From positions 472,150-536,149 of the forward strand of contig CAJXKD010000002.1 of assembly GCA_913055735.1 (NCBI GenBank): a DNA stretch of 64,000 nucleotides, written 5' to 3'. The stretch comes from an uncultured Rhodospirillales bacterium. GTDB lineage: Bacteria > Pseudomonadota > Alphaproteobacteria > Rhodospirillales > UBA2165. Below the pieces are notes generated by a model. That model searched no databases. It was not told the origin of the DNA and saw nothing but the letters and a program-made list of their open reading frames with translations. Shown here piece after piece: positions 3,458-58,777 of the stretch. The translations under genes and the position numbers were made by a program. Within the stretch, counting starts at the first letter, position 1. Each line of letters opens with the position of its first letter.

Positions 3458-3509
3458 CAGGCATGGGGCGCTCCAAGCAACTCCCCATAAAATTCTTCAG
3501 GCAACAACC

Positions 3510-4757: not shown

Positions 4758-5884
4758 ATATTGCCTTCTATGCACCGATGAAACATCCCGGTGCCTCCGT
4801 TCCCTCCGGGGACGTGGCGATTGCACGCGGAATAATCGCCGCACTGGAGCAGGCCGGGCATCAGGTCGACGTCGTCTCTCGATTGCGGACGTGGCAGGCC
4901 GACCCCGATCCAGAGCGGCAGCTGCGGCTGGCGAAAATAAGCCGCCTCATGGCGCAACGCCTGATGCGGCGTTTTCGTGCCCGTCCCGCCGCGTCACAAC
5001 CCGACCTATGGTTCACCTATCATCTGTATTACAAGGCACCCGATTGGCTGGGGCCGGAAGTAAGCCGGGTGTTGGATATTCCTTACGTGGTTGCCGAAGC
5101 GTCGCATGCGCCGAAACGTTTGGGCGGGCCTTGGGACGTAGGCCATCGTGCCGCGGAAGCGGCGATCAGGGCCGCCGATCGGGTGTTCGGGTTGAACTCG
5201 CTCGATGCCGCTTGTATCCGACCGCTTCTCGACGACCCCGCCAAGCTTGTTCAACTCAGGCCATTCATGGATATTCCGCCGATGATTGAGGTCGATCAAC
5301 GGAACGCGCGACGCGACGTGATTGCCGCTCGATACCGGGTGGACGGCGACGCCGTTTGGCTGTTGACGGTGGCGATGATGCGCGATGATGCAAAATTGGA
5401 GTCCTATAGGGTGTTGGCCGACGCCTACAGGCGGCTGACGCGCCGCGATACCACGTTGTTCGTTGTCGGCGATGGCGCGGCGCGGGAAAGGGTGGAAAAG
5501 GCTTTTGCCGATCAAAAGGTTGTCTTTACCGGGCGTTTGGAGGGGGAGTTGCTCGCTTCCTTGCTGGATACAGCCGACATCTATGTTTGGCCTGCCGTGA
5601 ATGAGGCATATGGGATGGCGCTGCTCGAGGCGCAGGCGCATGGATTGCCGGTGGTCGCGGGCAGGGCCGGCGGGGTTGCGGACATTGTCCGAGACGGTAA
5701 GACGGGCCTGCTGACCCCTGAAGGTGACGCTGCGGCGATGGCGGCGGCAATCGCCGGGTTGTGTGACGACCCGACGCGGCGCAATCAAATGGGAAAAGCG
5801 GCGCGGCACACCGTTGTCGCGGAACATAGTCTTACCGCCGCGACCGCAATCCTCGATGGGGCCCTGCGGGAGATTGCCGCATGA
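4754..5884 (+). CDS. Glycosyltransferase group 1
   Basis: EAYGMALLEAQAHGLPVVAGRAGGVADIVRDGKTGLL (E-x7-E type motif). The start overlaps the upstream stop (4754/4757). Confidence 0.8.
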   Translation: MNIAFYAPMKHPGASVPSGDVAIARGIIAALEQAGHQVDVVSRLRTWQADPDPERQLRLAKISRLMAQRLMRRFRARPAASQPDLWFTYHLYYKAPDWLGPEVSRVLDIPYVVAEASHAPKRLGGPWDVGHRAAEAAIRAADRVFGLNSLDAACIRPLLDDPAKLVQLRPFMDIPPMIEVDQRNARRDVIAARYRVDGDAVWLLTVAMMRDDAKLESYRVLADAYRRLTRRDTTLFVVGDGAARERVEKAFADQKVVFTGRLEGELLASLLDTADIYVWPAVNEAYGMALLEAQAHGLPVVAGRAGGVADIVRDGKTGLLTPEGDAAAMAAAIAGLCDDPTRRNQMGKAARHTVVAEHSLTAATAILDGALREIAA

Positions 5885-6483
5885 CGATCCTCGCGATGAT
5901 CCGGCATGGCGACACGGACTGGAACCGGCAAGGACTGATCCAGGGCCACAGTGATATCCCGCTTGGCGAAGAGGGGGAGCGGGATGTCCGCAGTTGGCGT
6001 TTGCCGCCCGACCTCGAAGAATTCGATTGGATCGCAAGCCCTCTGAAACGGGCTTTGGAAACGGCACGTCTCTTGGCGAAACGGGAACCCCGCATAGAAG
6101 AGCGGCTGACGGAAATGAGTTGGGGCGAATGGGAGGGCCGAACCCTCGCAGCACTGCGCGAGGAACTGGGCGATCTCATGCGCGCCTGGGAAGCCCGAGG
6201 TCTCGATTTTCGGGGGCCCGAAGGCGAAAGCCCCCGCGATGTCCAAGACCGCGTCCGGCCATTATTGGCGGAGTTGGCGCAGGCGGGCAAACCGACGGTT
6301 GCCGTTTGCCATCGCGGCGTCATTCGATCGGTCTATGCGATGGCAACGGGATGGGACATGGTGGAAAAGGCGCCGGTGAAATTGCGCGATGCGGCGGTCC
6401 ATTATTTCATTCTGACGTCGGATGGAACGCCTGCCGTCGATCGGCTCAACGTCAAACTCGGTGCCGATCTGGAGCCGCGATGA
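5881..6483 (+). CDS. Histidine phosphatase family protein (phosphoglycerate mutase-like)
   Basis: RHG motif at the N-terminus (MIRHGDTDWN) and a second His motif (VCHRGVIRS). Overlapping start/stop with both neighbours. Confidence 0.8.
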   Translation: MTILAMIRHGDTDWNRQGLIQGHSDIPLGEEGERDVRSWRLPPDLEEFDWIASPLKRALETARLLAKREPRIEERLTEMSWGEWEGRTLAALREELGDLMRAWEARGLDFRGPEGESPRDVQDRVRPLLAELAQAGKPTVAVCHRGVIRSVYAMATGWDMVEKAPVKLRDAAVHYFILTSDGTPAVDRLNVKLGADLEPR

Positions 6484-7667
6484 CGCGCAAAAATGTCTTT
6501 TTTTATGTCCAGCACCTGTTGGGGATCGGTCACCTCAAACGGGCGGCGACACTTGCGCGCGCCATGTCCGAGGAAGGACTGGACGTCACCGTGGTATCGG
6601 GGGGCGAGGAAGTCGACGTGCTTGACCAACACGGCATGACCTTCGTGCAACTTCCGCCGATCCGCACGCGCGATCGCACTTTCAGCGGACTGGTCGACGC
6701 TAGTGGAGAAGATGTCGGCGAAGACCTCAAGCAACGCCGCGCGGCCGTATTGATCGATGCGTTTACATCGGTCCGACCCGACGTGCTGATCGTCGAACTG
6801 TATCCTTTCGGGCGCCGGCAACTCCGCTTCGAGTTGGATCCGTTGCTCGATGCCGCGGACGCCATGCACCCGCGTCCGGTGATCGTGTCGTCGGTGCGCG
6901 ATATACTGGTTGAAAAGAACCGTCCGGAGCGGGACCGGCAGATGGTCGACACGGCCAAGGCCCGTTTCGATGCCGTCATGGTGCACGGCGATCCGGCGTT
7001 CATCCCCCTCGATGCGACGTTCCCGTTGGCCAAGGAAATCGCGGATATGATCCATTACACCGGCTACGTGGTGGAGAAAACGCTTGCCGATGCCGAGGGC
7101 GGAATACAGGGGGCGGGTGAGGTGATCGTTTCCTCCGGCAGCGGCGCGGTGGGCGAACTGTTGCTGAGGACCGCGATGGCGGCGCGGCCACGCACGGGCC
7201 TGTCGCAGGTGACGTGGCGTCTGTTGGCCGGTCCGAGTTTGCCAGACGACGTGTTTATGGATCTAAAGGCTGCGGCGCCGGATGGGGTCATCGTTGAACG
7301 GGCGCGGCGCGATTTCGTGACGTTGTTGAAGAACTGCCGGTTATCGATCTCGCAGGGCGGCTATAACACGGTCATGGAAATTCTGGCAACGGGGGCAAAG
7401 GGAATTGCCGTGCCCTATGCCGGGGGGCATGAAACCGAACAGACACTGCGGACCCGGTTGCTCGCCGAAAGAGGCGCAATTCTGCAGATTCCCGAATCGG
7501 AACTGAATATCGACCGTCTTATCGACATGATCGAGCGCGCGGAAGGCCTTCCCAAACCGAAACCTTATCCATTGGACATGAACGGCGCCGAAAAAGCGGC
7601 CAAATTGGTCGCAACCTGGGCAGCACACGGCCTTGAAAGCGGCATTGCGGCTAATCAATTGGATTAA
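6480..7667 (+). CDS. GT-B glycosyltransferase, MurG-like / COG4671-type (paralog 2)
   Basis: ATG at 6480 gives MTRKNVFFYVQHLLGIGHLKRA, with SQGGYNTVMEIL near the C-terminus. The longer ORF from 5994 overlaps the phosphatase gene out of frame and was trimmed. Confidence 0.75.
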   Translation: MTRKNVFFYVQHLLGIGHLKRAATLARAMSEEGLDVTVVSGGEEVDVLDQHGMTFVQLPPIRTRDRTFSGLVDASGEDVGEDLKQRRAAVLIDAFTSVRPDVLIVELYPFGRRQLRFELDPLLDAADAMHPRPVIVSSVRDILVEKNRPERDRQMVDTAKARFDAVMVHGDPAFIPLDATFPLAKEIADMIHYTGYVVEKTLADAEGGIQGAGEVIVSSGSGAVGELLLRTAMAARPRTGLSQVTWRLLAGPSLPDDVFMDLKAAAPDGVIVERARRDFVTLLKNCRLSISQGGYNTVMEILATGAKGIAVPYAGGHETEQTLRTRLLAERGAILQIPESELNIDRLIDMIERAEGLPKPKPYPLDMNGAEKAAKLVATWAAHGLESGIAANQLD

Positions 7668-7721: not shown

Positions 7722-10700
7722 GTGTCTTTTCGGGGTCGGGCGACAGTATACGGGAAAGGGACCGCGGTGGAGCGGGGCGTCTTCAAATATATCCTGCGCT
7801 ATAGCAGGCCGCAGCAAATCTTGCTGCTGACCCTTTCGGTTCTCTCGTTCCCCGTTTATTACGCGTCTCTGCAGCTCCCCAAGATGATCGTCGATGACGG
7901 TATCGGTGCGGAAGATTTCCCCCGCACGTTCCTCGGCACCGAGTTCGAGCATATTCCTTTTTTGCTGTTTCTCTGCGGCATCTTTCTGGCGCTGGTCTTC
8001 TTCAACGGCGCGTTCAAATACGTCATCAACGTCTTTAAGGGATCGAGCGGCGAGCGCCTGTTGCGCCGTCTCAGATACCAACTTATCTCCCGCGTTCTTC
8101 GCTTCCCGCTGCCGCAGTTCCGGAAAGTGTCGCAAGGCGAATTGGTGTCCATGATCACTGCCGAAACGGAGCCGCTCGGCGGTTTCTTCGGCGAAGGCTT
8201 GGCGACGCCTGTTTATCAAGGCGGAATGTTAGTCACCCTGATGACATTCATGTTCGTGCAGGATTGGAAGCTGGGTCTTGCGGCGGTCGCCCTGTACCCG
8301 TTTCAGGCTTGGCTCATTCCCAAGTTGCAGCGTCAGGTAAATGCGCTCGGCAAGGAGCGGGTGCGAACCGTTCGGCAGTTGTCGGAACGGATTGGCGAGG
8401 CGGTGTCCGGCGCGAGCGAGATTCATGCGAATGATACCGCGCAGTACGAATTGGCCGACTTTTCGTCCCGGTTGGGGCGCATCTATGCCATTCGCTTCGA
8501 GATTTATCTCAAGAAGTTCTTCATCAAGTTCCTGAACAACTTTCTTGCCCAGCTGACACCGTTCTTTTTCTACTCCATTGGCGGCATCCTAGTCATCAAC
8601 GGGCAGATCACGATCGGGGCGCTGATCGCAATCCTTTCGGCTTACAAGGATGTCTTGGCGCCGTGGAAAATTCTGCTCAACTACTATCAGCAGAAAGAGG
8701 ACGCTCGGATCAAATACGAGCAGATCATTGAACGCTTCGAACCTACCGGTCTGCTCGATGAAAAGATGCAGGAGGAAGAGCCGGACGATCTGCCCCGCTT
8801 CGAAGGGCGGCTCGTCGCATCGAACGTCGGCTGGTCCGAGGACGATGGCTTGAAAGTTCTCGACGGGGCGTCGCTCGCCATTGATCTTCCCAAGCACGTC
8901 GCGTTGACCGGCCCGGCCGGCGGCGGGAAGGGGGAGTTCTCGCAACTCCTGGCGCGGCTTTTGGTGCCAAGCAGCGGCCGTATAACGATCGGCGACTCCA
9001 ACCTTATTGAGTTGCCGGAATCGGTAACGGGACGGCGCATCGCCTATGTCGGGCAAAGCCCGTATATGTTCAATGCATCGATCCGCGATAACCTTCTGTA
9101 CGGTCTAAAGCATCGGGTGTTGCAGGAACCCGAATACGACGCCGACGCCCGCAAGGAGCGCGAGAAGGAGATTCTCGAATCCCAAAGATCTGGCAATAGC
9201 GTCTACGATCCTTCAGCGATCTGGGTGGATGTCGGCTCCGCAGGGACTGAAGATGACGAAGCCTTGGCGCACCGGATAAACGAGGTGCTTCGAACGGTGG
9301 GGCTTCGCCGGGACGTCTATCAGATGGGATTGCGCCGGACCATAGACCCGGTGGAGCGGCGGGCCTTGGCCAAGCGGGTGCTTGAGGCGCGCGCCAAGCT
9401 GAGGGAGCGTTTGCTCGACCCTGAGCTCGCCCAATTCGTCGAGACTTTCGATCCGGAAAAATATAATAGCAACGCGTCGGTTGCCGAAAATATCCTGTTC
9501 GGCACGCCGGTCGGCGACCAATTGGCGATCGAGAAGCTCGGGGAAAACAGCTATATGCTGCGTGTTCTCGACGAGGTTGGTCTTGCCCAGGCGTTTCTGG
9601 AAAAGGGCTTGCGGCTCGCGGAGATCATGGTCGATCTGTTCCGCGGCCTGTCACCGGATCACGAGTTCTTCGAGCGGTTCAGCTTCATCAGCTCTGACGA
9701 TTTGCCGGACTTTCAAGCTATTGTACAGCGCGCGGCCCAAAGCGGGCTGGATAGTCTTCCCGAAGACGAGCGGGCGAGACTTCGGGCGTTGCCGTTCCTA
9801 CTGATCCCCGCCCGCCATCACCTGGACATTATCGACGAGCCTTTCCAGCGCCAGTTGTTGGATGCGCGCCGCGCCTTTCATGCCAGCCTCCCCAAGGAAT
9901 TGGCGTCGGCTGTCGAATTCTTCGATGTCGAGAAGTACAACTCCGCGAGTTCCATCCAGGACAATATTCTGTTCGGCAAGCTTGCCCGGGAACGGGCCGG
10001 AAGCGCCGAGAAAGTCGGCGTCTTGCTTGCGGAGGCCGTGGATGAAGTCGGACTTCGCCAGGACATCCTCGAGCTGGGTCTCGACGTCAATGTCGGCATC
10101 GGCGGCAGTCGCTTGTCGGCGCTTCAAAGGCAAAAACTGGCCATCGCCCGAGGCCTGATGAAATGTCCCGATATTTTCATCCTGAACGAAGCGTTGTCGG
10201 GACTCGATCCGGACAACCAATCGTTGTTGCTCGAGAGCGTGTTGCGTGAGCAAGAGGGTCGGTCGGTCGTTTATGTGAACGGACCAACGGCGTCGACGGA
10301 CCATTTCGATCAGGTCATTTCCATCGCCGGTGGGCGAGTGGTCGATCATGGTGTGGGCGCGGCGCCGCCGCTCGAGGAAGCGCCCGCGGTTCCCGCGGAA
10401 GAGGTCGCCGGCGGCGGTTTTGGAGGCGAAATCGATGTTCTGGCGTCGCTTCCCTTGTTTCGTGGCATCGACCGCTCGCGTCTCAAACTGCTGGCCTTCG
10501 CCAGCCAGCGCCACATTTATGACCCGGGTCAGTACGTTATCCGGCAGGGCGAGGTCGGGGAAAACGCCTATATCGTCATTGACGGTGAGGCCGAAATCCT
10601 GCTCGACACGGGAGATGAGTTGAAAAAACTCGCGACATTGAAGCGCAACGACTTGTTCGGCGAACTGGCGCTCCTTTGCGAGGCACCGCGGACCGCCTCG

Positions 10701-33858: not shown

Positions 33859-34641
33859 TTACCGGGTGCCGTTGCGGCGCCTAGCCCGTTCGCGAGCGGC
33901 CTCGCCGAATTTCTTATAGAGTATGCGCGACAGATCGTGGTTCTCGGGGTACCACTCGCAATGCCATTGGACGCCCACGGCGAAACTTTTGGCGCCGTTC
34001 ACGGTGATCGCTTCAATCACGCCGTCGGGCGAAACGGCTTCGACGTCGAGGCCGTCGGCAAGGCGGTCGATGCCCTGTCCGTGCAATGAATTCACCATTA
34101 ACTCGTCAACCCCCATCATTTCCTCGAATTGGCCGCCGGGGGACAGCTTGATCGGATGGCGGAGCGCGAATATCTCTTCGGCCGTCGCCTCGGGATCGCG
34201 CGGCATACGGTGGTCCATTTTTCCCGGCAAGAGATGGATGCGGTAGTGCAACGAGCCGCCCAGGGCGACGTTGATTTCCTGAATGCCGCGGCAGCTGCCG
34301 AGAATGGGCACGCCTTCGTCGAGACAGGCGCGGACGAGCGGTAGCACGCAGGCGTCGCGGTCGGGATCGATGGGTTCGTCGTCGGGGAAGGGTGGTCCGC
34401 CGTAATGGTGGGGCTCGACATTCGCGCGTCCGCCGGTGAGCAGAAGCCCGTCGATGCGGCGCACCGTGTCCTTCACATCCGCCGCGCCTGGGAAGGAGGG
34501 CAGCAAGACGGGGGTGACCTCGGAAAACTCCACCAGCGTTTCCACGTACCGGGTTCCGGACGTGTGGCTCATATGGCGGCGTTCGGTAATTTGCATGACG
34601 CTGGTCGGAATGCCGACCACCGGCCTGGACTTTTCAGACAT
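33859..34641 (-). CDS. Gamma-glutamyl-GABA hydrolase-like class I glutamine amidotransferase (peptidase C26, PuuD-like)
   Basis: Nucleophile elbow GSCRGIQ and a later QWHCEW (His of the triad). Confidence 0.85.
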   Translation of the reverse strand: MSEKSRPVVGIPTSVMQITERRHMSHTSGTRYVETLVEFSEVTPVLLPSFPGAADVKDTVRRIDGLLLTGGRANVEPHHYGGPPFPDDEPIDPDRDACVLPLVRACLDEGVPILGSCRGIQEINVALGGSLHYRIHLLPGKMDHRMPRDPEATAEEIFALRHPIKLSPGGQFEEMMGVDELMVNSLHGQGIDRLADGLDVEAVSPDGVIEAITVNGAKSFAVGVQWHCEWYPENHDLSRILYKKFGEAARERARRRNGTR

Positions 34642-51793: not shown

Positions 51794-51811
51794 GGCTATC
51801 GGGATAGGCGA

Positions 51812-51851
51812 GGCAGGCGAGTAAGGCCCCTCCGGCCGACTTTCGCCTGCC
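51812..51851 (+). other. Extended GC-rich stem-loop (9-bp outer plus 4-bp inner stem) without U-tract
   Basis: ggcaggcga...tcgcctgcc with inner ggcc/ggcc, 19 nt after the stop at 51793. Confidence 0.35.
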
Positions 51852-51882
51852 GCATTCAGGTCTTAATTGCCAGAATATATTT

Positions 51883-51904
51883 GGCTCAAATCAGCCCATT
51901 ATTA
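51883..51904. repeat. Copy 4 of quasi-palindrome (ggctcaaatcagcc) plus attatt tail; near-identical to the copy at 60413
   Basis: 19 of 21 positions identical to 60413-60433 by hand alignment. Confidence 0.5.
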
Positions 51905-52077
51905 GCGTGCGCGTGGCCGTGGCGGCCGCAGCCTCCTCGAACAACCTGAACGAAAACATCGGTTAACGTTTCAGCGGTAAATTTACAAGCCGTCGTCGGC
52001 GGCTGTCACGGGCGGCGTCTCGAGATTTGGCCGTTGGCCCGGAATCGTAGCCGCATGGTATTTGCAGGTTGTTCCGA

Positions 52078-52632
52078 ATGCCGCATTTCGAGCCTCAGGG
52101 GAGGGAGTATCCGACGGGCGTGTTGTACTGGCTTACCGGGCTTGCCGGTGCCGGGAAAACCACCCTGGGACACCTTCTTTTCGAGGAAATCCGTACCCGC
52201 AGGCCGCAGTCAGTGTTTCTGGACGGCGACGTGCTGCGCAAAGTGTTCGATATCGAAGGGGGCACAAAGCCGGCCGAACGGCTGCAGCTTGCGATGCGCT
52301 ACGCGCGGCTTTGCCGTGATTTGACGGCGCAGGACATCGATGTCGTCTGCTGCACGATTTCTCTTTTTCCAGAAGTGTGGAACTGGAACCGGGAAAATAT
52401 CCCCAGCTATCGGGAAATCTACGTCCGTGTTCCGATGGACGTGCTGAAGCAGCGTGACAAGAAAGGCCTCTATTCGTCAGCCGAATCGGGGGAGGTCCAA
52501 AATGTCGTCGGTGTGGATCTGCCTTTTAACGAACCAGTCAATCCCGATCTAATCGTCGACAACGACGGAACCTCCGATCCGGCAACGGTCGTATCGGGGA
52601 TCGTCTCGGCTTTAGGAGCCTGTCGGCCATGA
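52078..52632 (+). CDS. APS-kinase-family P-loop kinase; predicted cytidine diphosphoramidate 3'-kinase (Cj1415-like)
   Basis: GLAGAGKTTLG P-loop and LDGD motif, ~185 aa. Translationally coupled to the three partner enzymes. Confidence 0.7.
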   Translation: MPHFEPQGREYPTGVLYWLTGLAGAGKTTLGHLLFEEIRTRRPQSVFLDGDVLRKVFDIEGGTKPAERLQLAMRYARLCRDLTAQDIDVVCCTISLFPEVWNWNRENIPSYREIYVRVPMDVLKQRDKKGLYSSAESGEVQNVVGVDLPFNEPVNPDLIVDNDGTSDPATVVSGIVSALGACRP

Positions 52633-55019
52633 ATTTCTTCCCGCCGGTATTCGGAACCAAGGCCGAAACCCTTGCCGCATTGGGGCGCCATACGCATGAC
52701 TTCCGGGTTCCGGACACGTATTTCTTTACGGTCTCGGATTGGACACGGGATTCCGCTGACATCATACGAACAATCGGCACGCGATTTGCCGACCGCGTCG
52801 CCGTGAGAAGCAGCGCGGTGTCGGAGGATGGCAATACCGCCTCGCTGGCGGGTAAATACGTCAGCCGTTTAAATATCAACGCGCAATGCCCGGATGACTG
52901 TACCGACGCCATCGAGTGTGTCATCGCGTCCTATGACGGAAACGCCAGCGATCAAATTTTGATCCAGGAAATGGTCGGAGACGTAGAGGTTGCCGGTGTC
53001 ATCATGTCCCACAATTTGGATGACGGCGCTCCGTACTACGTGTTCGGTTACGATGATGAGTCTGGGCGGACCGATGCTGTCACCGGCGGGTTCGGCGTGC
53101 ATAAAACTGTACTCGTTCATCATGAGGCTGATGAGCGCCATATACGGTCGGTTCGAATCCAAAAGATGCATGCGCTGATACGTAATCTGGAGACCGTCTT
53201 CGGCCGGCGCCCCATGGACGTGGAGTTTGCGATAGACCGGTCGGGCGTTGCCCATGTCTTTCAGGTCCGGCCGATAACCACGTCGGAGAAGTGGTCGGCG
53301 GCGACCACTCGTTGCGTCAACCGAGAGCTTCCTCGTATGGAAAGTATTCTCAAACGTTACGCGGCACGCCGGCCGGGTCTTGCCGGGAGAACAAACATCC
53401 TTGGCAATATGCCCGACTGGAATCCGGCGGAAATCATCGGCTCCTCACCGAGACCATTGGCAACATCGCTATATCGGCATCTTGTCACCAAGGATGTCTG
53501 GCACATAGCACGTGCCGCGATGGGGTACCGGAAGCTGCCGGGTGTAGAACTGCTGGTGGAGATGGCCGGCCGGCCCTTCATCGATGTCCGCGCCAGCTTT
53601 AACTCGTTCTTGCCGAACGCGACGGATGCGGGCACGGCGGAAAAGTTGGTGGACAGCTGGTTGTCGCGGCTCGACCGGCATCCGGAATTTCACGATAAGA
53701 TTGAGTTCGAAATTGCCAGCACGGCGTACGACTTTCTTTTCGAACAAAACCAATCTGAACGCTATCCCGGCGTTCTCTCCACGGAGGCGTTGGCGGCCTA
53801 TAGAAACGACCTAAAGGCCCTAACCGCACGCAACCTTGCCTTAGATCGCAAAAGTTTTCTCGGAACTGCCGAGCGTCAGCTGGAGACGTTGCGATCACGG
53901 CGAACGATTTACGAGAAAGAGAACAAAGCCGATCCTGTGAACCTCCTCGGTCAGGTGGTGCTGCTGTTGAACGATTGCCGCCGCCTCGGCACTCAACCTT
54001 TTGCCGTTATTGCGCGCCAGGCGTTTATTGCAGAGGCGCTATTGCGGTCCGCCGTGGCCCGTGGCGCCATTTGCGATAACCGGGTTCTGGAGCTCAAAAG
54101 ATCTATAAACACGGTTTCGCGTGATATCTCACGCGATCTGAATTCAGTGTGCAAAGGCGCGTTGGATAAGTCCGTGTTTTGGCTCAACTATGGCCATCTC
54201 CGACCGGGATCTTACGACATTACCTCGCCCCGATATTCGGATCGGAAGAATCTGTTTGAGAATGGCGTTACCGCCGCCGATGCGCCGGAGACGGGGCCGT
54301 TTGTTTTGAACCCAGCAGAGGCGAGGGGCCTCGATGGGCTGTTGAAAGAGTCAGGATTGGACCACCTCACCGCGGCACAGCTTATCGAGTATGCCGGACG
54401 GGCGATACGGGGGCGAGAATACGGTAAGCTGATCTTTACCTGGAATTTGTCCGCTGCATTGGAAAACATTGCCGAATGGGGGAAGCTTCTCGGTCTCAGC
54501 CGAGACGACGTCTCGTTTCTCCCGGTTGACGAAATTCTTTCAATGGGGCGTCCGAGTTCCCTCGAAGATCGGGCCAGAGCTTTTGTGGATCAGATAGCGG
54601 CGGCCCGTGAGGACTTTGCTGATTCTCATGCGGTGAAACTGGGATATTTGATCCGGGACGTACACGATCTTTATGTCCTGCCTGTCCACCGAAGTGCGCC
54701 GAATTTTGTTACCAGCAAGCGAACAGAGGGCCGCGTGGCTCATTTAGAAAACAGAACCTCGGCGGCGGCCGATTTACGCGGTGCAATTGCATGCATCGAA
54801 AATGCGGATCCAGGATTCGACTGGATTTTTGCAAAGGGTATTTCCGGCTTGATTACCAAATTCGGTGGAATGAATTCACACATGGCTGTTCGTTGCGCGG
54901 AATTTGGGTTGCCCGCCGCGATCGGGTGCGGTGAAGATTTGTTCGACCGGATCGTCGGCGGCCCGTCAGCCGTGCTGGATTGCGCAAATAAAACGCTCGT
55001 TTCGGCAGATGAATACTGA
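52629..55019 (+). CDS. PPDK/PEP-synthase-like ATP-grasp plus swivelling phosphohistidine-domain enzyme; predicted L-glutamine kinase (Cj1418-like)
   Basis: N-terminal PPDK_N-like region (VRSSAVSEDGNTASLAGKY) and C-terminal PEP-utilizer motif GGMNSHMAVRCAEFGLPA, 796 aa. Confidence 0.7.
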   Translation: MNFFPPVFGTKAETLAALGRHTHDFRVPDTYFFTVSDWTRDSADIIRTIGTRFADRVAVRSSAVSEDGNTASLAGKYVSRLNINAQCPDDCTDAIECVIASYDGNASDQILIQEMVGDVEVAGVIMSHNLDDGAPYYVFGYDDESGRTDAVTGGFGVHKTVLVHHEADERHIRSVRIQKMHALIRNLETVFGRRPMDVEFAIDRSGVAHVFQVRPITTSEKWSAATTRCVNRELPRMESILKRYAARRPGLAGRTNILGNMPDWNPAEIIGSSPRPLATSLYRHLVTKDVWHIARAAMGYRKLPGVELLVEMAGRPFIDVRASFNSFLPNATDAGTAEKLVDSWLSRLDRHPEFHDKIEFEIASTAYDFLFEQNQSERYPGVLSTEALAAYRNDLKALTARNLALDRKSFLGTAERQLETLRSRRTIYEKENKADPVNLLGQVVLLLNDCRRLGTQPFAVIARQAFIAEALLRSAVARGAICDNRVLELKRSINTVSRDISRDLNSVCKGALDKSVFWLNYGHLRPGSYDITSPRYSDRKNLFENGVTAADAPETGPFVLNPAEARGLDGLLKESGLDHLTAAQLIEYAGRAIRGREYGKLIFTWNLSAALENIAEWGKLLGLSRDDVSFLPVDEILSMGRPSSLEDRARAFVDQIAAAREDFADSHAVKLGYLIRDVHDLYVLPVHRSAPNFVTSKRTEGRVAHLENRTSAAADLRGAIACIENADPGFDWIFAKGISGLITKFGGMNSHMAVRCAEFGLPAAIGCGEDLFDRIVGGPSAVLDCANKTLVSADEY

Positions 55020-55671
55020 AGAAAACGGCCTTCGTATCGGCGTAACCATGCGTGTAGCTGAGGCCTCGTCCTATCGCGAGACGCGGGATCTCTTGGCGCG
55101 GGATTGGGGAAAGTTTCTCGCGGCCGCTCTGCCGTCAGTGCCGTGGATGCCGATTCCCAATCGGGAAAACGACGTTCATACCATCGTTCGCGATTGGGGC
55201 TTGAACGGCTTTATCCTTACAGGTGGCGATGACTGGGGAACAACACCGGTACGTGATCGGACGGAAGAGACAATTCTGCAGATTGCCGAAGAGAATTCGT
55301 TTCCCTTGCTGGGCGTTTGCCGTGGCCTGCAAGCGATGCAAATTCGTTCGGGTGGCCGACTTGCCGCATGTCCCTGCGACGCCCATGTCGCGACCCAACA
55401 CACCGTCAGATTTGTTCGCCCGGTGGGCGGCTCCCGTTTCGGCGATGGTGAAATGACCGTCAACTCGTTCCATGCCAATGGCATTCTGGAAGGGGAATTG
55501 GCCGACGACCTTGAAGCCATTGCAATAAGTGCAGACGGATTTATCGAGGCTGCCTCCCACGGGAGATATCCCCAGCTGGGCGTCATGTGGCACCCGGAAC
55601 GAGCGCGAGCCTTTCACCCAACAGACGTCGGGCTGTTGCGCTCCTTGTTCGGTTTTAAAGAAACGCCATGA
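55009..55671 (+). CDS. Class I glutamine-amidotransferase-like hydrolase; predicted gamma-glutamyl-CDP-amidate hydrolase (Cj1417-like)
   Basis: Nucleophile elbow GVCRGLQ and a later MWHPE (His-Glu of the triad). Overlaps both neighbours. Confidence 0.7.
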   Translation: MNTEENGLRIGVTMRVAEASSYRETRDLLARDWGKFLAAALPSVPWMPIPNRENDVHTIVRDWGLNGFILTGGDDWGTTPVRDRTEETILQIAEENSFPLLGVCRGLQAMQIRSGGRLAACPCDAHVATQHTVRFVRPVGGSRFGDGEMTVNSFHANGILEGELADDLEAIAISADGFIEAASHGRYPQLGVMWHPERARAFHPTDVGLLRSLFGFKETP

Positions 55672-56423
55672 AGGGGATAATTCTTGCCGCGGGGCGAGGC
55701 AGCCGCATGGGGAGCGCGACCGATGACAGGCCCAAATGCTTTGCCAAGATAGACGGCCGCCGGCTCATCGACTGGCAAATTGCTGCACTTCGTGACGCGG
55801 CGCTCGACGACATCACAATCGTTGGCGGGTATCGACGGGAAATGCTTGCGCCATACGCGGATCAAGTTCTTGCGAACTGCCATTGGGCGGAGACCAACAT
55901 GGTCACCAGTTTGGTGTGTGCCGCCGACATTCTGCGAAGTCACGATTGCATCGTTTCGTATTCCGATATCCTTTACCACCCGGATATCGTACGCGCTCTC
56001 TCGGCGTCGAATGCGGATATCGCGATATCTTTCGATGAAGACTGGAGGTCGCTCTGGTCGGACCGTTTCACCGATCCGCGGAATGACGCCGAGGGTTTCG
56101 AGGCCAAAGACGGTTATCTCGTTTCAATCGGCGATCGGCCAGAAGACCTCGATGACGTTCGGGGGCAATATATGGGGCTTTTGAGAATTTCGCCGCGCGG
56201 TTGGCAAGAGATCGAGGGCTATTTGTCGACGCTCGACGGCGCGAGACGTGATTGTCTCGATATGACGGGGCTGCTCGCGGCCTTGTTGGATAAGGGCGTC
56301 GGAATTGAAACCATTGCCATTACGGGTAAATGGTGTGAAGTGGACAGCGCAGACGATTTGACCCTTTATCGCCATAGAATTTCGGAAGCGGCGGCGTGGT
56401 CCCATGATTGGCGGTGGAAGTAG
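55668..56423 (+). CDS. Nucleotidyltransferase (LicC-like); predicted CTP:phosphoglutamine cytidylyltransferase (Cj1416-like)
   Basis: GIILAAGRGSRMG...PKCF signature of sugar/small-molecule NTP transferases, 251 aa. Confidence 0.7.
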   Translation: MKGIILAAGRGSRMGSATDDRPKCFAKIDGRRLIDWQIAALRDAALDDITIVGGYRREMLAPYADQVLANCHWAETNMVTSLVCAADILRSHDCIVSYSDILYHPDIVRALSASNADIAISFDEDWRSLWSDRFTDPRNDAEGFEAKDGYLVSIGDRPEDLDDVRGQYMGLLRISPRGWQEIEGYLSTLDGARRDCLDMTGLLAALLDKGVGIETIAITGKWCEVDSADDLTLYRHRISEAAAWSHDWRWK

Positions 56424-56485
56424 GACGAGACGCGTGGCGGCTCATTCTCATGACAACTTAGATGAGTGAACCGCTCAGAGGCCGC

Positions 56486-57733
56486 TTAACGTTTCCAGCC
56501 GCAATCTTCAAGTATCCGGTCCGGCGTTAAATCCTGAATTTTCTTCTGTTGTGACGGCGTTAGACCGGTGCGCCAGGCATCGAGGCTGCCCTTCAACACT
56601 TCGTTGCTATGATGCTCATATTGGAGCTGCCGATCGTTTTTTAGCAGTTTCTCGTCAAAGCCGAAAAAATCTGCGATTTCCGCGAAATATCCTTCTGGAT
56701 CGGTCTTGAACTTTTCGAAGGTTACCAGCTTAACCTCCATACCGGAGGCGGGTGATCGTGCGAATTCATTCCAACCTGCTACCCAATCAGCCCATAAAGG
56801 TTCGTAGGCGTTGTCTATGTTCCAATCGATTTTCTTTTCGATGGGAAGGTCCTCATATCCGCGCGGCAGATGTTCGTAATACATGTGGCGGAGCTGCCAT
56901 GTCTGGTGCTCCAAATGATAAAAGAATGAAAAGAATGCTTGCCGAGGGTCGCGGAGATGGACCAGCATTTTCGACAGGTGAGACCGCGATAGGGTGTTCA
57001 GGTTGGCGTCGCTGGGCAGCGGGTGGCTCGTGCTCACCGCGGCGCCGCGCTGAAAATCGTCAAGTAGAACCGGAGCAAAAATGGACCGCGGAAAATTGTT
57101 CAACGTGGTCGGAAATATGCAGACGTCCAAACCGCATGCCATATAGTAAAGGATGTATTGTGAGGCCGCGCTCGGCATGGAGACCATAAGTATGGGCGGA
57201 ATACCGGCAGTGATCGCCGCCTCGCGCTTTTCTATTTGTTCGGGTAGGTTCTGGTAATTCAGACTAAGGAAGTCTTTGGGGCTGTAACTTCGTGCACCGT
57301 TCGCCGGACTCGATTTCGCCGATGACGAAAGGCCGTTACATTGGTCAACGAGGTGGTTTCGCAGTTTCTCATAAAGTTGCGCGTTGCTCTCGCCCCTAAG
57401 AAGCCTATCAAGGGTAAGTGCCTGATTGATACAATTGACGCTCAAATCCGGGCGGTCTGCTTTTAGTAGGCACAACGACTGCAAGAAAAATAGATAGTCG
57501 TTTGACTGATGTGTTTGCAGGAGCTTTTCCAGGATCCCGCTAAGGCTTCCGAAATTTCGGCTCGTAATCAGGTGGCGCAGGATCTCAGAGATATTTTCCG
57601 GAATATCTTCCAGGGGATTACCTGCTTCGAGAATGTCATGCGCCATTTCTTCAAAGGCTGATATCTCAAAATCGGGCATCATTGGCACAGAACTTTCGGA
57701 AGCCGGCAACCGAGAACAGGGGAATCGGGACAA
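56486..57733 (-). CDS. Sulfotransferase-fold protein with helical N-terminal domain; candidate phosphoramidate transferase
   Basis: ILMVSMPSAASQYIL (5'-PSB-like loop lacking Lys), MLVHLRDPRQAFFSFFYH (3'-PB motif), VTFEKFKTDPEGYFAEIADFFGF, KGSLDAWRTGLT. About 50% GC. Confidence 0.65.
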   Translation of the reverse strand: MSRFPCSRLPASESSVPMMPDFEISAFEEMAHDILEAGNPLEDIPENISEILRHLITSRNFGSLSGILEKLLQTHQSNDYLFFLQSLCLLKADRPDLSVNCINQALTLDRLLRGESNAQLYEKLRNHLVDQCNGLSSSAKSSPANGARSYSPKDFLSLNYQNLPEQIEKREAAITAGIPPILMVSMPSAASQYILYYMACGLDVCIFPTTLNNFPRSIFAPVLLDDFQRGAAVSTSHPLPSDANLNTLSRSHLSKMLVHLRDPRQAFFSFFYHLEHQTWQLRHMYYEHLPRGYEDLPIEKKIDWNIDNAYEPLWADWVAGWNEFARSPASGMEVKLVTFEKFKTDPEGYFAEIADFFGFDEKLLKNDRQLQYEHHSNEVLKGSLDAWRTGLTPSQQKKIQDLTPDRILEDCGWKR

Positions 57734-57792
57734 ACGGACTTATGATCAAACGCGGCCAGAAATAGGCTAGAAAGCGATTGTAAATATTATGT

Positions 57793-58566
57793 TTATTGCT
57801 TTCTCGCGCTCCAAGCACGGGTGAGGTAGCTGCAGGAAATGGTGCCCGATTTGGCTGTTTTCTCCTCAACGAAGCTCAGGAATTTCTTGAATTCCGACTC
57901 GCCGAGTTGTGCACGCACGTCATTAACGGATTTCCACACCCCGACGTAGCGTTCGGGGGACATTTCGATGGTGTGAGGCCCCTCCAAGAAAACGACGTCG
58001 TCAAAAAATCCGCATGATTGGAGACGCTCACTCAAACCTTCGGTGATCCCGCCTTTCCCTGAAGACTTCCGTTGAAGCCCGGGCTTCAAACTGTAAAGAA
58101 ATGCTTCGATCTCCTCCAACATGGGGTTGTCTTGGATGTGTCTCGGATTCCAGAGGCACACAAATCGCCCGCCCGGCTTTAAAATTCTATTGAATTCATT
58201 TACTGCCGCATCGAAATCCGCCCAGTGAAATGAGGAAGCCATGCTGACCCAATCGTACGTAGCGTCGGGCAGGCCCGTCTCCTCCGCGCGTCCAGTCAGC
58301 CATGTCACGGGAGTTGAAATGGACTGGGCTTTTCCGACCCGGCGCATGTCATCGTTTGGTTCAATGGCCGTAATCCGGCGAACGCCGAAATCGGCAAGCA
58401 TCGCGGTGAATATTCCGGTGCCGGCGCCGACATCGACCGCTTGGACTTCCTCTATTGGCCGATCAAGGAGTGCCAGTGTCGCTAAGACAACCGAGTGCGA
58501 ATAATCCGGCCTAAAACGCGCGTATGCATCGGCAAGCCCAGAAAAATCACCCAGGGGTAAGCTCAT
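57793..58566 (-). CDS. Class I SAM-dependent methyltransferase (Methyltransf_11-like)
   Basis: ATG at 58566 after gggaga. Motif I VDVGAGTGIF, then LKPGGRFV. Confidence 0.8.
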   Translation of the reverse strand: MSLPLGDFSGLADAYARFRPDYSHSVVLATLALLDRPIEEVQAVDVGAGTGIFTAMLADFGVRRITAIEPNDDMRRVGKAQSISTPVTWLTGRAEETGLPDATYDWVSMASSFHWADFDAAVNEFNRILKPGGRFVCLWNPRHIQDNPMLEEIEAFLYSLKPGLQRKSSGKGGITEGLSERLQSCGFFDDVVFLEGPHTIEMSPERYVGVWKSVNDVRAQLGESEFKKFLSFVEEKTAKSGTISCSYLTRAWSARKQ

Positions 58567-58777
58567 TTTTCTCCCACGCATCGACAGCCAAGACAACCGG
58601 GTATCCGCTAACAAATAGGGTGCTGTAGTTGAAAATTCGTAACTATTCGCCAGTGGATGAAAATTGCGGTGAGGCTGAGGATTTTTCCCACTGCGCGTTC
58701 GCTACGAGGCTGAATCCCCATACCTTCATGCGCGATTCCGGTATCTGTAGTGGACTCGTCCCGGACGGGACCACAAT

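What the first reader, a model, noticed from the sequence alone, without database searches (positions are those of the whole stretch)
52078..58566. Complete Campylobacter-type phosphoramidate (MeOPN) donor pathway in a low-GC island of a high-GC genome
Four plus-strand genes are translationally coupled, with overlaps at 52629-52632, 55009-55019 and 55668-55671. In order they encode an APS-kinase-family P-loop kinase (GLAGAGKTT) and a 796-aa enzyme with a PPDK-like ATP-grasp N-terminus and a swivelling phosphohistidine domain (GGMNSHMAVRCAEFGLPA). They also encode a class I amidotransferase-like hydrolase (GVCRGLQ...MWHPE) and a LicC-like nucleotidyltransferase (GIILAAGRGSRMG). This is the enzyme set characterised in Campylobacter jejuni: Cj1418 L-glutamine kinase, Cj1416 CTP:phosphoglutamine cytidylyltransferase, Cj1417 gamma-glutamyl-CDP-amidate hydrolase and Cj1415 cytidine diphosphoramidate 3'-kinase. 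That set builds 3'-phospho-cytidine-5'-diphosphoramidate, the donor for O-methyl phosphoramidate on capsule sugars. A convergent minus-strand pair supplies a SAM methyltransferase (a role analogous to Cj1419/Cj1420) and a transferase candidate. To my knowledge this P-N bond pathway has only been characterised in Campylobacter. Here it sits in an alphaproteobacterial-type background with no capsule genes adjacent, so the acceptor is unknown.
Basis: partly seen in the sequence, partly recalled or inferred. Interest (0 to 1): 0.88.

Follow-up and report, generated by a model that had tools for sequence, protein, structure and literature searches.

The report
Phosphoramidate donor pathway with sulfotransferase-like partner
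A six-gene island encodes the four enzymes that Campylobacter uses to build its phosphorus-nitrogen sugar decoration, plus a methyltransferase and a modified sulfotransferase-like protein that may attach the group; the four-gene set is widespread in bacteria, so the partner protein is the interesting part.

Summary
Four overlapping plus-strand genes and a convergent minus-strand pair lie at 52078-58566, in the most GC-poor 7 kb of the window.

- The 796-aa protein scores 869 bits on NCBIfam NF004508, against 58 bits or less on PEP synthase and rifampicin phosphotransferase models.
- The kinase passes only the NF004041 APS-kinase subfamily cut-off.
- The hydrolase's best model is gamma-glutamyl-CDP-amidate hydrolase, but below its cut-off.
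- In the best 80 of at least 585 species genomes carrying the big enzyme, the hydrolase and cytidylyltransferase are present in 70 and the kinase in 60.

The pathway is therefore not Campylobacter-specific, although papers and genome annotation still treat it so.

The new point concerns the partner genes. The methyltransferase is a regular cassette member. The 398-aa protein has a sulfotransferase fold that keeps the 3'-phosphate-binding motifs but has lost the catalytic lysine. A second organism carries the same module. An unrelated sulfotransferase subfamily, also without the lysine, flanks the cassette in 4 of 5 sampled contigs and is once fused to the cassette kinase.

I propose these proteins transfer phosphoramidate from the PAPS-like donor. 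This is inferred and untested. The acceptor is unknown. Campylobacter sequences could not be obtained for direct comparison.

The parts
52078..52632 (+). A: APS-kinase-family P-loop kinase (184 aa). Predicted cytidine diphosphoramidate 3'-kinase, the Cj1415 role.
   Evidence: Pfam APS_kinase at 4.5e-30. NCBIfam NF004041 scores 176.9 bits against a cut-off of 127, while the protein is below cut-off on TIGR00455, NF002059 and NF003013. It overlaps B by ATGA. Homologues lie within 10 kb of B in 60 of 80 loci.
52629..55019 (+). B: 796-aa PPDK_N ATP-grasp plus swivelling phosphohistidine enzyme. Predicted L-glutamine kinase, the Cj1418 role.
   Evidence: NCBIfam NF004508 scores 869 bits against a cut-off of 501. 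PEP synthase models score 58 bits or less and Rph 50.6 bits. Pfam finds PPDK_N and PEP-utilizers. His751 in GGMNSHM is invariant in 13 diverse homologues.
55009..55671 (+). C: class I amidotransferase-fold hydrolase (220 aa). Predicted gamma-glutamyl-CDP-amidate hydrolase, the Cj1417 role.
   Evidence: Pfam Peptidase_C26 at 2.4e-22. The best NCBIfam model is NF045546 at 4.6e-27 and 95 bits, below its cut-off of 250. Cassette hydrolases from four other loci score the same, 94-102 bits. The Cys (GVCRGLQ) and His-Glu (WHPE) are present. It follows B directly in most loci.
55668..56423 (+). D: LicC-like nucleotidyltransferase (251 aa). Predicted CTP:phosphoglutamine cytidylyltransferase, the Cj1416 role.
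   Evidence: Pfam NTP_transf_3 at 1.1e-17. The best solved relative is CTP:phosphocholine cytidylyltransferase 1jyk. It overlaps C by ATGA. It is present in 70 of 80 loci, usually right after C.
56486..57682 (-). E: 398-aa protein with an N-terminal helical TPR-like domain and a C-terminal sulfotransferase fold. Candidate phosphoramidate transferase.
   Evidence: Pfam Sulfotransfer_1 matches the C-terminal part only, at 5.4e-07. The AF2 model has pLDDT 85. The top Foldseek PDB hits are SULT1C1, SULT7A1, Teg12, StaL and CurM-ST. RDPRQ..S, KGxxDxWR and His220 are conserved. The PSB-loop Lys is replaced by Ser (MPSAAS); 72 of 78 family members have Lys or Arg there. The 45%-identical homologue in L090 lies next to F, D and C homologues.
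57793..58566 (-). F: class I SAM methyltransferase (257 aa), upstream of E in the same minus-strand unit. Predicted O-methylase of the phosphoramidate, the Cj1419/Cj1420 role.
   Evidence: Pfam Methyltransf_11 at 1.1e-18. Homologues are found in 19 of 80 cassette loci, often as B-C-D-MT-A. It is 51-55% identical to the methyltransferase inside the A-MT-B-C-D operons of L171-L174 and 68% identical to the one in L090. The best solved relative is HvrF, 9e72, at 5.9e-17.
51794..58777 (.). Compositionally distinct island that holds the six genes.
   Evidence: GC is 0.549 against 0.596 for the rest, the lowest 7-kb stretch in the window. GC3 is 0.58-0.67 against 0.69-0.80 in the flanking genes.
56424..56485 (.). 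62-bp gap between the convergent 3' ends of D and E.
   Evidence: Sequence read. No terminator-like site was called there.

Best explanation
The island is a self-contained six-gene module. It makes an activated phosphoramidate and probably transfers it, O-methylated, onto an unknown acceptor.

Steps inferred by homology to the characterised Campylobacter enzymes:
1. [quoted passage not shown]
2. D condenses that product with CTP to give CDP-L-glutamine.
3. C, with a Cys-His-Glu triad, cleaves off glutamate and leaves cytidine diphosphoramidate.
4. A phosphorylates the 3'-hydroxyl. The product, 3'-phospho-cytidine-5'-diphosphoramidate, has the same layout as the sulfate donor PAPS.

Steps inferred from context only:
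5. E is a sulfotransferase-fold protein that keeps the 3'-phosphate-binding motifs and the catalytic histidine but lacks the lysine that normally contacts the phosphosulfate. It binds this PAPS-like donor and passes the phosphoramidate to a hydroxyl of the acceptor, releasing cytidine 3',5'-bisphosphate.
6. F methylates the phosphoramidate oxygen, before or after transfer.

The acceptor is not encoded nearby. It may be a glycan made elsewhere in the genome or a small molecule.
For: B is at 869 bits on NF004508, A passes only NF004041, and C's best model is NF045546.

Co-occurrence and fixed order appear in the best 80 of at least 585 species genomes. Gene fusions (A-B in Vibrio; B-C in L027) point to one pathway.

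F is a regular cassette member.

Linkage of E to the cassette:
- The only other organism with a close E homologue and enough flanking DNA (L090) has E, F, D and C together, at 45-68% identity.
- E has a sulfotransferase fold with the 3'-phosphate motifs kept and the PSB lysine lost, unlike 72 of 78 relatives.
- An independent sulfotransferase subfamily, with Asn at the aligned position in most members (NLPNxGxS; the Azospirillum copy reads NLFYSGSS), is cassette-adjacent in L003, L035 and Azospirillum, and in 4 of 5 sampled contigs.
- That subfamily includes one fusion to the cassette kinase (L035). A different sulfotransferase subfamily includes one fusion to a methyltransferase (L014).

The pathway chemistry is taken from the Taylor/Raushel work as summarised in PMC6429109 and PMC11924219.
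Against: - No direct comparison with Cj1415-Cj1418 or Cj1421/Cj1422 was possible.
- C scores below the curated equivalog cut-off (95 vs 250 bits).
- There is no dedicated model for the Cj1416 role in the libraries.
- E could be an ordinary PAPS-dependent sulfotransferase. APS kinases and sulfotransferases are natural partners.
- Two cassette-adjacent sulfotransferases (L007, L073) keep a canonical basic residue.
- One Vibrio plasmid has cysDN beside the cassette.
- 22 of 80 loci carry TagF-like CDP-glycerol-type phosphotransferases, which are an equally logical transferase for a CDP-linked donor.
- More distant E relatives (29-32% identity) are not next to a cassette.
- No biochemistry exists for any non-Campylobacter member.
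Confidence: 0.7

Rival explanations
1. E is an ordinary PAPS-dependent sulfotransferase and A is, or doubles as, an APS kinase that supplies PAPS. The E-F pair then sulfates and methylates some metabolite independently of B-C-D.
For: E has the sulfotransferase fold with PAP-binding motifs. A is in the APS_kinase family. The Vibrio alfacsensis plasmid has cysD-cysN next to an A-B fusion. The cassette-adjacent sulfotransferases in L007 and L073 have canonical basic P-loops.
Against: A is translationally coupled to B and fails the canonical CysC model cut-offs. A-type kinases accompany the cassette in 60 of 80 loci, most of which have no sulfotransferase. E has lost the PSB lysine that 72 of 78 relatives keep as Lys or Arg. 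The unrelated cassette-linked subfamily has also lost it. F, E's operon partner, is a regular cassette gene.
Confidence: 0.15
2. The donor is made as proposed, but E is not the transferase. The phosphoramidate is transferred by an enzyme encoded elsewhere, for example a TagF-like CDP-alcohol-type phosphotransferase or a Cj1421/Cj1422 homologue. E has another role, such as binding or recycling the 3'-phospho-nucleotide.
For: TagF-like (Glyphos_transf) genes are the commonest extra neighbour, with 39 members in 22 of 80 loci. One follows D directly on the Vibrio plasmid. L172 has both a TagF-like gene and sulfotransferases.
Against: The window has no TagF-like gene in the island. E keeps the catalytic His and both 3'-phosphate motifs. 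The six-gene module recurs without a TagF-like gene in L173, and L090 shows none in the 6.1 kb recovered.
Confidence: 0.25
3. B, D, C and A act on a different substrate. They would make another CDP-activated amino-acid phosphate, as in the CDP-threonine route of Clostridioides difficile flagellin glycans, rather than a phosphoramidate.
For: CDP-amino-acid donors other than CDP-glutamine now exist (bioRxiv 10.64898/2026.02.12.704994). C is below the equivalog cut-off. The substrate of B cannot be read from sequence.
Against: A glutamine-amidotransferase-fold hydrolase, whose best model by 16 orders of magnitude is the CDP-amidate hydrolase, is fixed between B and D in most loci. This makes sense only if a gamma-glutamyl amide is cleaved. 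The 3'-kinase is also part of the set.
Confidence: 0.07
4. B is a PEP synthase, a pyruvate phosphate dikinase or a rifampicin-type antibiotic phosphotransferase, and the gene neighbourhood is coincidental.
For: It shares PPDK_N and PEP-utilizers domains. Public annotation calls its homologues 'pyruvate, phosphate dikinase' or 'PEP-utilizing enzyme'.
Against: It scores 869 bits on NF004508 against 58 bits or less on every PEP synthase, PPDK or Rph model. PDB hits to PEP synthase cover only the swivel domain. Synteny with C, D and A is conserved.
Confidence: 0.01

Closest known systems
Campylobacter jejuni MeOPN biosynthesis genes Cj1415-Cj1418, with the methyltransferases Cj1419/Cj1420 and the transferases Cj1421/Cj1422 (HS1.01-HS1.07 in serotype HS:1)
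   Same: It has the same four enzyme families, with the catalytic motifs and operon-level coupling. A SAM methyltransferase and one further transferase-like protein are also present, giving a gene count close to the seven Campylobacter genes (PMC11924219, PMC3907429).
   Different: - It is not in a capsule (kps) locus.
- It has one methyltransferase instead of two.
- The candidate transferase is a 398-aa TPR plus sulfotransferase-fold protein. Whether Cj1421/Cj1422 share that fold could not be tested here.
- The hydrolase is too divergent to pass the Campylobacter-centred NCBIfam model (95 vs 250 bits).
- The acceptor is unknown.
The uncharacterised A-MT-B-C-D cassette spread through many bacterial phyla, some archaea and plasmids
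   Same: The window's genes are 35-55% identical to these, and 57-68% identical to the C, D and F homologues in L090. They share the gene set and most of the order, and in a subset they have sulfotransferase-fold neighbours.
   Different: In the window the methyltransferase has moved out of the cassette operon and pairs with E on the opposite strand. E belongs to a rare subfamily, with 4 clusters found by the word-indexed search, distinct from the commoner NLPNxGxS type. Most other loci lie among polysaccharide, nonulosonic-acid or lipid A genes; this one does not.
PAPS-dependent sulfotransferases (SULT1/2, Teg12, StaL, CurM ST domain)
   Same: The fold, the catalytic histidine, and the RDP..S and (R)KGxxGxW 3'-phosphate-binding motifs are shared.
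   Different: The 5'-phosphosulfate-binding loop reads MPSAAS instead of PKSGS/T, so the catalytic lysine is absent. There is an extra N-terminal helical repeat domain. The genomic partner makes a cytidine-based diphosphoramidate, not PAPS.
APS kinase CysC / PAPS synthase
   Same: A has the same fold and P-loop, and performs 3'-phosphorylation of a nucleoside 5'-diphospho-type compound.
   Different: A passes only the NF004041 subfamily model and fails the canonical CysC models. It is coupled to B-C-D rather than to cysDN.

Membership tests
L-glutamine kinase (Cj1418 type, EC 2.7.3.13) | N-terminal PPDK-type ATP-grasp plus C-terminal swivelling PEP-utilizers domain with the phospho-accepting histidine | tested here: met
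   Pfam finds PPDK_N at 4.7e-18 and PEP-utilizers at 7.7e-11. His751 in GGMNSHM is invariant in 13 homologues.
L-glutamine kinase (Cj1418 type, EC 2.7.3.13) | Belongs to the dedicated full-length family rather than to PEP synthase, PPDK or Rph | tested here: met
   NF004508 scores 869 bits (cut-off 501) over residues 7-790. PEP synthase models score 58 bits or less and Rph 50.6 bits. That NF004508 contains Cj1418 is my recollection and was not checked here.
L-glutamine kinase (Cj1418 type, EC 2.7.3.13) | Direct sequence or phylogenetic grouping with Cj1418; phosphorylation of the amide N of L-Gln | not testable with these tools
   The Cj1418 sequence is not retrievable (papers not held; no PDB entry). 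No assay is possible.
gamma-glutamyl-CDP-amidate hydrolase (Cj1417 type) | Class I amidotransferase fold with a Cys-His-Glu triad | tested here: met
   Pfam finds Peptidase_C26 and GATase. GVCRGLQ and WHPE are present.
gamma-glutamyl-CDP-amidate hydrolase (Cj1417 type) | Reaches the curated NCBIfam equivalog score (NF045546, 250 bits) | tested here: not met
   It scores 95.4 bits at E = 4.6e-27. This is the best hit by about 16 orders of magnitude but is below the cut-off. Four other cassette hydrolases score 94-102 bits, so the model appears to be tuned to Campylobacter.
CTP:phosphoglutamine cytidylyltransferase (Cj1416 type) | LicC/MobA-like nucleotidyltransferase with the N-terminal GxGxR motif, encoded beside the kinase and the hydrolase | tested here: met
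   Pfam finds NTP_transf_3 at 1.1e-17. The motif is LAAGRGSRMG. The best solved relative is 1jyk LicC. It follows C in 70 of 80 loci.
CTP:phosphoglutamine cytidylyltransferase (Cj1416 type) | Specific family model or substrate specificity | not testable with these tools
   No dedicated model appeared among the 25 of 34 NCBIfam matches listed.
Cytidine diphosphoramidate 3'-kinase (Cj1415 type) | APS-kinase fold in a subfamily separate from canonical CysC | tested here: met
   NF004041 scores 176.9 bits against a cut-off of 127. The protein is below cut-off on TIGR00455 (108.6 vs 138.7), NF002059 (106.8 vs 244) and NF003013 (79.7 vs 163). The same pattern holds in three of four other cassette kinases; the fourth, a 130-aa fragment, scores 125.6 bits, just under the cut-off.
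MeOPN gene cluster as a system | The four biosynthetic genes co-occur and are co-oriented | tested here: met
   In the 80 loci, C is present in 70, D in 70 and A in 60. Most gaps are at contig ends. The overlapping stop/start codons in the window are shown.
MeOPN gene cluster as a system | Embedded in a capsule (kps) polysaccharide locus with a defined sugar acceptor | tested here: not met
   The flanks are catabolic and transport genes. The nearest glycosyltransferases are about 44 kb away.
MeOPN transferases Cj1421/Cj1422 | Homology of E to Cj1421/Cj1422 | not testable with these tools
No Campylobacter names appear among the 120 listed relatives of the cassette-linked sulfotransferase subfamily.
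PAPS-dependent sulfotransferase (for E) | Sulfotransferase fold with 3'-phosphate-binding motifs and a catalytic His | tested here: met
   The AF2 model and Foldseek give SULT, Teg12 and StaL at probability 1.00. RDPRQ..S, KGxxDxWR and H220 are conserved.
PAPS-dependent sulfotransferase (for E) | 5'-phosphosulfate-binding loop P-K-x-G-S/T with the catalytic lysine | tested here: not met
   E has MPSAAS and its L090 homologue has MPSAGS. In the family alignment, 63 of 78 members have Lys and 9 have Arg at this position.

The most novel reading that the evidence does not exclude
Sulfotransferase-fold proteins that have lost the phosphosulfate-contacting lysine are the missing phosphoramidate transferases. 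They would use 3'-phospho-cytidine-5'-diphosphoramidate as a PAPS look-alike. This would explain why the pathway ends with a 3'-phosphorylation by an APS-kinase homologue.

The window's E, the NLPNxGxS subfamily and a third cassette-linked type would be independent recruitments of this fold. The six-gene module (kinase, methyltransferase, glutamine kinase, hydrolase, cytidylyltransferase, sulfotransferase-like) would be a widespread and so far unrecognised system. It would put (methyl) phosphoramidate on glycans, lipid A or small molecules far beyond Campylobacter.
Probability: 0.45. Interest if true: 0.8.

Novelty: new variant of a known kind. Interest (0 to 1): 0.66.

Why it matters
The P-N-bond pathway to O-methyl phosphoramidate is known biochemically only from Campylobacter. 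A 2022 review still calls the glutamine kinase C. jejuni-specific (PMC9561416), and NCBI annotation names the homologues PEP-utilizing enzyme, GABA-hydrolase family, phosphocholine cytidylyltransferase family and adenylyl-sulfate kinase.

This work shows that the cassette occurs in hundreds of species. It also isolates a compact six-gene version of it. Together these make two open questions directly testable:
- How the phosphoramidate leaves its nucleotide carrier. A 2025 Campylobacter paper still lists elucidating the methyl phosphoramidate decoration of the capsule as future work (PMC12409886).
- What phosphoramidate decorates outside Campylobacter.

If the sulfotransferase-fold proposal is right, it adds a new chemistry to a very well studied fold. 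It also gives a sequence signature, loss of the PSB lysine together with cassette linkage, for finding such enzymes.

Tried and rejected
- **Campylobacter sequences.** I tried to read the four Taylor/Raushel papers for sequences and homologue statements. None is held. No Cj1415-Cj1418 structure is in the PDB by sequence search. Direct alignment with the Campylobacter proteins was therefore impossible.
- **Fold libraries.** The afdb50 library, which could have shown whether E resembles Cj1421/Cj1422, was not available.
- **E in the first 80 loci.** tblastn, phmmer and a four-sequence HMM of E found nothing convincing. E looked like an orphan until the metagenome scan found L090.
- **PEP synthase or Rph reading of B.** Rejected on scores.
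- **Mobile-element origin.** I found no tRNA, integrase or flanking repeats, and no promoter or terminator signal above shuffled controls. Only composition suggests horizontal transfer.
- **Taxonomy.** Cluster look-ups returned no names. A plasmid tblastn of a flanking gene gave only 34-35% identity. 'Alphaproteobacterial' stays unverified.
- **Literature.** Searches for a published link between glutamine kinase and sulfotransferases, and for PRK05849, found nothing.
- **Upstream PnbB and 4HBT genes.** I considered and set aside the idea that they belong to the module. Their GC3 matches the host and they have no counterpart in other loci.

Full report
**1. What is in the sequence**

The region holds six real genes. 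They match the public gene calls for the same contig, a JGI metagenome scaffold of 223 kb.

| Gene | Coordinates | Strand | Length |
|---|---|---|---|
| A | 52078-52632 | + | 184 aa |
| B | 52629-55019 | + | 796 aa |
| C | 55009-55671 | + | 220 aa |
| D | 55668-56423 | + | 251 aa |
| E | 56486-57682 | - | 398 aa |
| F | 57793-58566 | - | 257 aa |

So are all the quoted motifs.
- The island 51794-58777 has GC 0.549 against 0.596 for the rest of the window, the lowest 7-kb stretch. GC3 is 0.58-0.67 in the six genes against 0.69-0.80 in the neighbours. The composition is distinct, but only modestly so.
- There are no tRNA genes. No flanking repeats, promoters or terminators stand out from shuffled controls.
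- The flanks encode a xanthine-dehydrogenase-type enzyme, a thioesterase, a PnbB-like lyase, a GMC oxidoreductase and amino-acid ABC transporters.
- The nearest glycosyltransferases are at 2225-7667.

**2. The four plus-strand genes**

- **B** scores 869 bits on NCBIfam NF004508 over its whole length (cut-off 501). It scores at most 58 bits on PEP synthase models and 50.6 bits on rifamycin phosphotransferase. PDB matches to PEP synthase cover only the swivelling domain. The histidine of GGMNSHM (His751) is invariant in 13 homologues of 45-50% identity.
- **A** is an APS-kinase-fold protein. It passes only the NF004041 subfamily cut-off (176.9 vs 127) and fails the canonical CysC models.
- **C** is a class I amidotransferase-fold hydrolase. 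Its best model is NF045546, gamma-glutamyl-CDP-amidate hydrolase, at E = 4.6e-27, with the next family at 4e-11. Its 95 bits are below the curated 250.
- **D** is a LicC-like nucleotidyltransferase.
- Four cassette kinases and four cassette hydrolases from other organisms behave the same way. The sub-threshold score of C is therefore typical of the family outside Campylobacter, not a peculiarity of this gene.

**3. Co-occurrence**

The genomes include Desulfovibrio, Pseudomonas, Aeromonas, Alteromonas, Methyloversatilis, Thalassobaculum, Rubricella, Cohnella, Verrucomicrobia, Planctomycetota, Acidobacteriota, candidate phyla and archaea.
- In the best 80 loci, homologues of C and D are each present in 70 and a homologue of A in 60. 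The usual order is B-C-D, and most absences are at contig ends.
- Fourteen plasmids also carry a full-length B. Examples are Azospirillum lipoferum 4B AZO_p6 and Vibrio alfacsensis.
- The literature I could read treats the pathway as a Campylobacter trait (PMC3907429, PMC6429109). One review calls the kinase 'C. jejuni-specific' (PMC9561416). The only extension I found is a structural prediction for Borg elements (bioRxiv 10.1101/2024.11.05.622173).
- NCBI annotation gives the non-Campylobacter genes generic names.
- The presence of the pathway here is thus ordinary for the family, but the family's breadth is poorly recognised.

**4. The minus-strand pair**

F:
- It is a Methyltransf_11 enzyme.
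- Homologues lie inside the cassette operon in 19 of 80 loci, typically as B-C-D-MT-A or A-MT-B-C-D.
- It is 51-55% identical to the methyltransferases of four further cassettes. F therefore belongs to the system.

E:
- It has only four relatives in the word-indexed search of 5.8 billion proteins. Full HMMER finds 1081 representatives for its C-terminal 250 residues.
- The AlphaFold model (pLDDT 85) shows an N-terminal helical repeat domain and a sulfotransferase fold. The closest solved structures are small-molecule sulfotransferases.
- E keeps the catalytic histidine and both 3'-phosphate-binding motifs, RDPRQ..S and KGxxDxWR.
- The 5'-phosphosulfate-binding loop reads MPSAAS. In an alignment of 78 family members, that position is Lys in 63 and Arg in 9. 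Only E and its closest homologue have Ser.
- That homologue lies on a 6.1-kb marine contig (L090). It sits next to homologues of F (68% identity), D (66%) and C (57%), convergent as in the window. The E-F-cassette module is therefore conserved in a second organism.
- More distant relatives (29-32% identity, Arg in the loop) show no cassette nearby.

**5. Other sulfotransferase-fold partners of the cassette**

- Sulfotransferase-domain genes lie beside the cassette in L001, L003, L007, L014, L035 and L070, about 8 kb from it in L073, and twice on the Azospirillum plasmid.
- In L035 the cassette's own kinase is fused to a sulfotransferase domain. In L014 a sulfotransferase domain is fused to a methyltransferase domain.
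- One subfamily (L003, both L035 copies, the short Azospirillum protein) has NLPN[AS]G[AS]S in most members, with the Lys replaced by Asn; the Azospirillum copy reads NLFYSGSS. A profile-profile comparison aligns this loop with E's MPSAAS.
- Searched on its own, this subfamily forms a tight group of about 45 clusters, separated by a score gap from generic sulfotransferases.
- Of five members sampled for context, four lie next to a full A-MT-B-C-D cassette. The fifth contig ends beside an F-like methyltransferase.
  - In L172 the gene follows D directly.
  - In L173 it converges on D and lies next to lpxD-fabZ-lpxA-lpxI-lpxB.
  - L174 has a second sulfotransferase of the longer type.
- Two cassette-adjacent sulfotransferases (L007, L073) keep a canonical basic loop. 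The pattern is therefore strong but not absolute.

**6. Proposed mechanism**

Steps 1-4 follow from homology to the characterised Campylobacter enzymes, with the chemistry as summarised in PMC6429109 and PMC11924219:
1. Glutamine is phosphorylated on its amide nitrogen.
2. The product is cytidylylated to CDP-glutamine.
3. Glutamate is cleaved off to leave cytidine diphosphoramidate.
4. The 3'-hydroxyl is phosphorylated.

The product resembles PAPS in layout. My recollection is that the original authors noted this analogy. I could not re-read the paper.

Step 5 is my inference. A sulfotransferase-fold protein that still binds a 3'-phosphonucleotide, but has given up the lysine tuned to a phosphosulfate, is a logical phosphoramidate transferase. 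Its recurrent linkage and fusions with the cassette kinase and methyltransferase support this.

Step 6, O-methylation by F, is by analogy with Cj1419/Cj1420.

The acceptor is unknown. E's structural neighbours are small-molecule sulfotransferases, and the island has no glycan genes, so a non-polysaccharide acceptor cannot be excluded.

**7. Rivals**

- E could be an ordinary sulfotransferase fed by A acting as an APS kinase.
- The real transferase could be a TagF-like enzyme, the commonest extra neighbour of the cassette, or a Cj1421/Cj1422 homologue encoded elsewhere.
- The cassette could activate another amino acid, as in the newly described CDP-threonine route. The fixed amidotransferase-fold hydrolase argues against that.
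- The PEP synthase or Rph reading of B is excluded.

**8. Verdict**

- The finding is a new variant of a known kind: the known donor pathway in a compact, horizontally acquired six-gene module.
- The module's sulfotransferase-like member suggests how the phosphoramidate is transferred.
- The main gaps are the missing direct comparison with the Campylobacter proteins, especially Cj1421/Cj1422, and the absence of any biochemistry.

Noticed in passing
window 2225-7667: This is a group of glycosyltransferase genes: a Glyco_tran_28_C-like gene, two GT4 genes and another Glyco_tran_28_C gene, with a histidine-phosphatase gene among them. It is followed by an ABC-membrane/cNMP-binding/GGDEF protein. 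It lies about 44 kb from the island and is the only glycan-related gene set in the window. A histidine phosphatase also sits among the sulfotransferase genes of the Azospirillum cassette.
   Followed up: partly
window 33859-34641 (-): This is a second Peptidase_C26/GATase-family protein (260 aa) next to a 4HBT thioesterase, about 18 kb upstream of the island. It is probably an ordinary PuuD-like hydrolase.
   Followed up: no
L035 9834-11279; L014 5880-7271: These are gene fusions in other cassette loci. In a Verrucomicrobia genome the cassette's APS-kinase-like domain is fused to a sulfotransferase domain. In a gammaproteobacterial MAG a sulfotransferase domain is fused to a Methyltransf_11 domain.
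   Followed up: partly
L173 5195-15853 (GCA_945871425.1): The A-MT-B-C-D cassette and its convergent sulfotransferase-fold gene lie directly after lpxD-fabZ-lpxA-lpxI-lpxB. This hints that lipid A or LPS could be the acceptor in that organism.
   Followed up: no
L086 (Azospirillum lipoferum 4B plasmid AZO_p6, 27861-40465) and L171: The cassette has an 846-aa kinase fusion, a methyltransferase, two sulfotransferase-domain genes, a histidine phosphatase, and secreted-looking Lcl_C (DUF1566) and C1q-domain proteins. Much of this arrangement (kinase fusion, methyltransferase, cassette, Lcl_C and C1q genes, one sulfotransferase) recurs in a metagenome contig. A. lipoferum 4B is a cultured strain in which the module could be tested.
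   Followed up: partly
L087 (Vibrio alfacsensis plasmid pYa108): A and B are fused into one 966-aa protein. cysD-cysN lie divergently upstream, and a CDP-glycerol glycerophosphotransferase-family gene follows D, within an exopolysaccharide glycosyltransferase cluster.
   Followed up: no
L167 7281-10157 (IMG/VR GVMAG-M-3300009496-9): A contig binned as a giant-virus MAG encodes homologues of B (32% identity) and D (36%). I could not tell whether this is viral or a binning artefact.
   Followed up: no
window 57793-58566 (F): F's closest solved structure is HvrF (9e72). This is the methyltransferase of the Pantoea ananatis HiVir cluster, which makes the phosphonate toxin pantaphos. It is another organophosphorus pathway.
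   Followed up: no
L071, L013, L020, L029, L069 (Pseudomonas, Alteromonas, Aeromonas, Cohnella loci), about 8100-10000: In this group the kinase is followed by a conserved roughly 190-aa protein with no Pfam hit and a roughly 244-aa formyltransferase-like protein, just before B. TagF-like genes lie upstream. This is a different accessory set from the methyltransferase and sulfotransferase type.
   Followed up: no
L081 (JGI Ga0589686_0003504): A 33%-identical E relative, with Arg in the loop, sits among methyltransferases, a radical SAM/SPASM enzyme, an aminotransferase and a GHMP kinase. No cassette lies within 10 kb. It is possibly a natural-product cluster.
   Followed up: no
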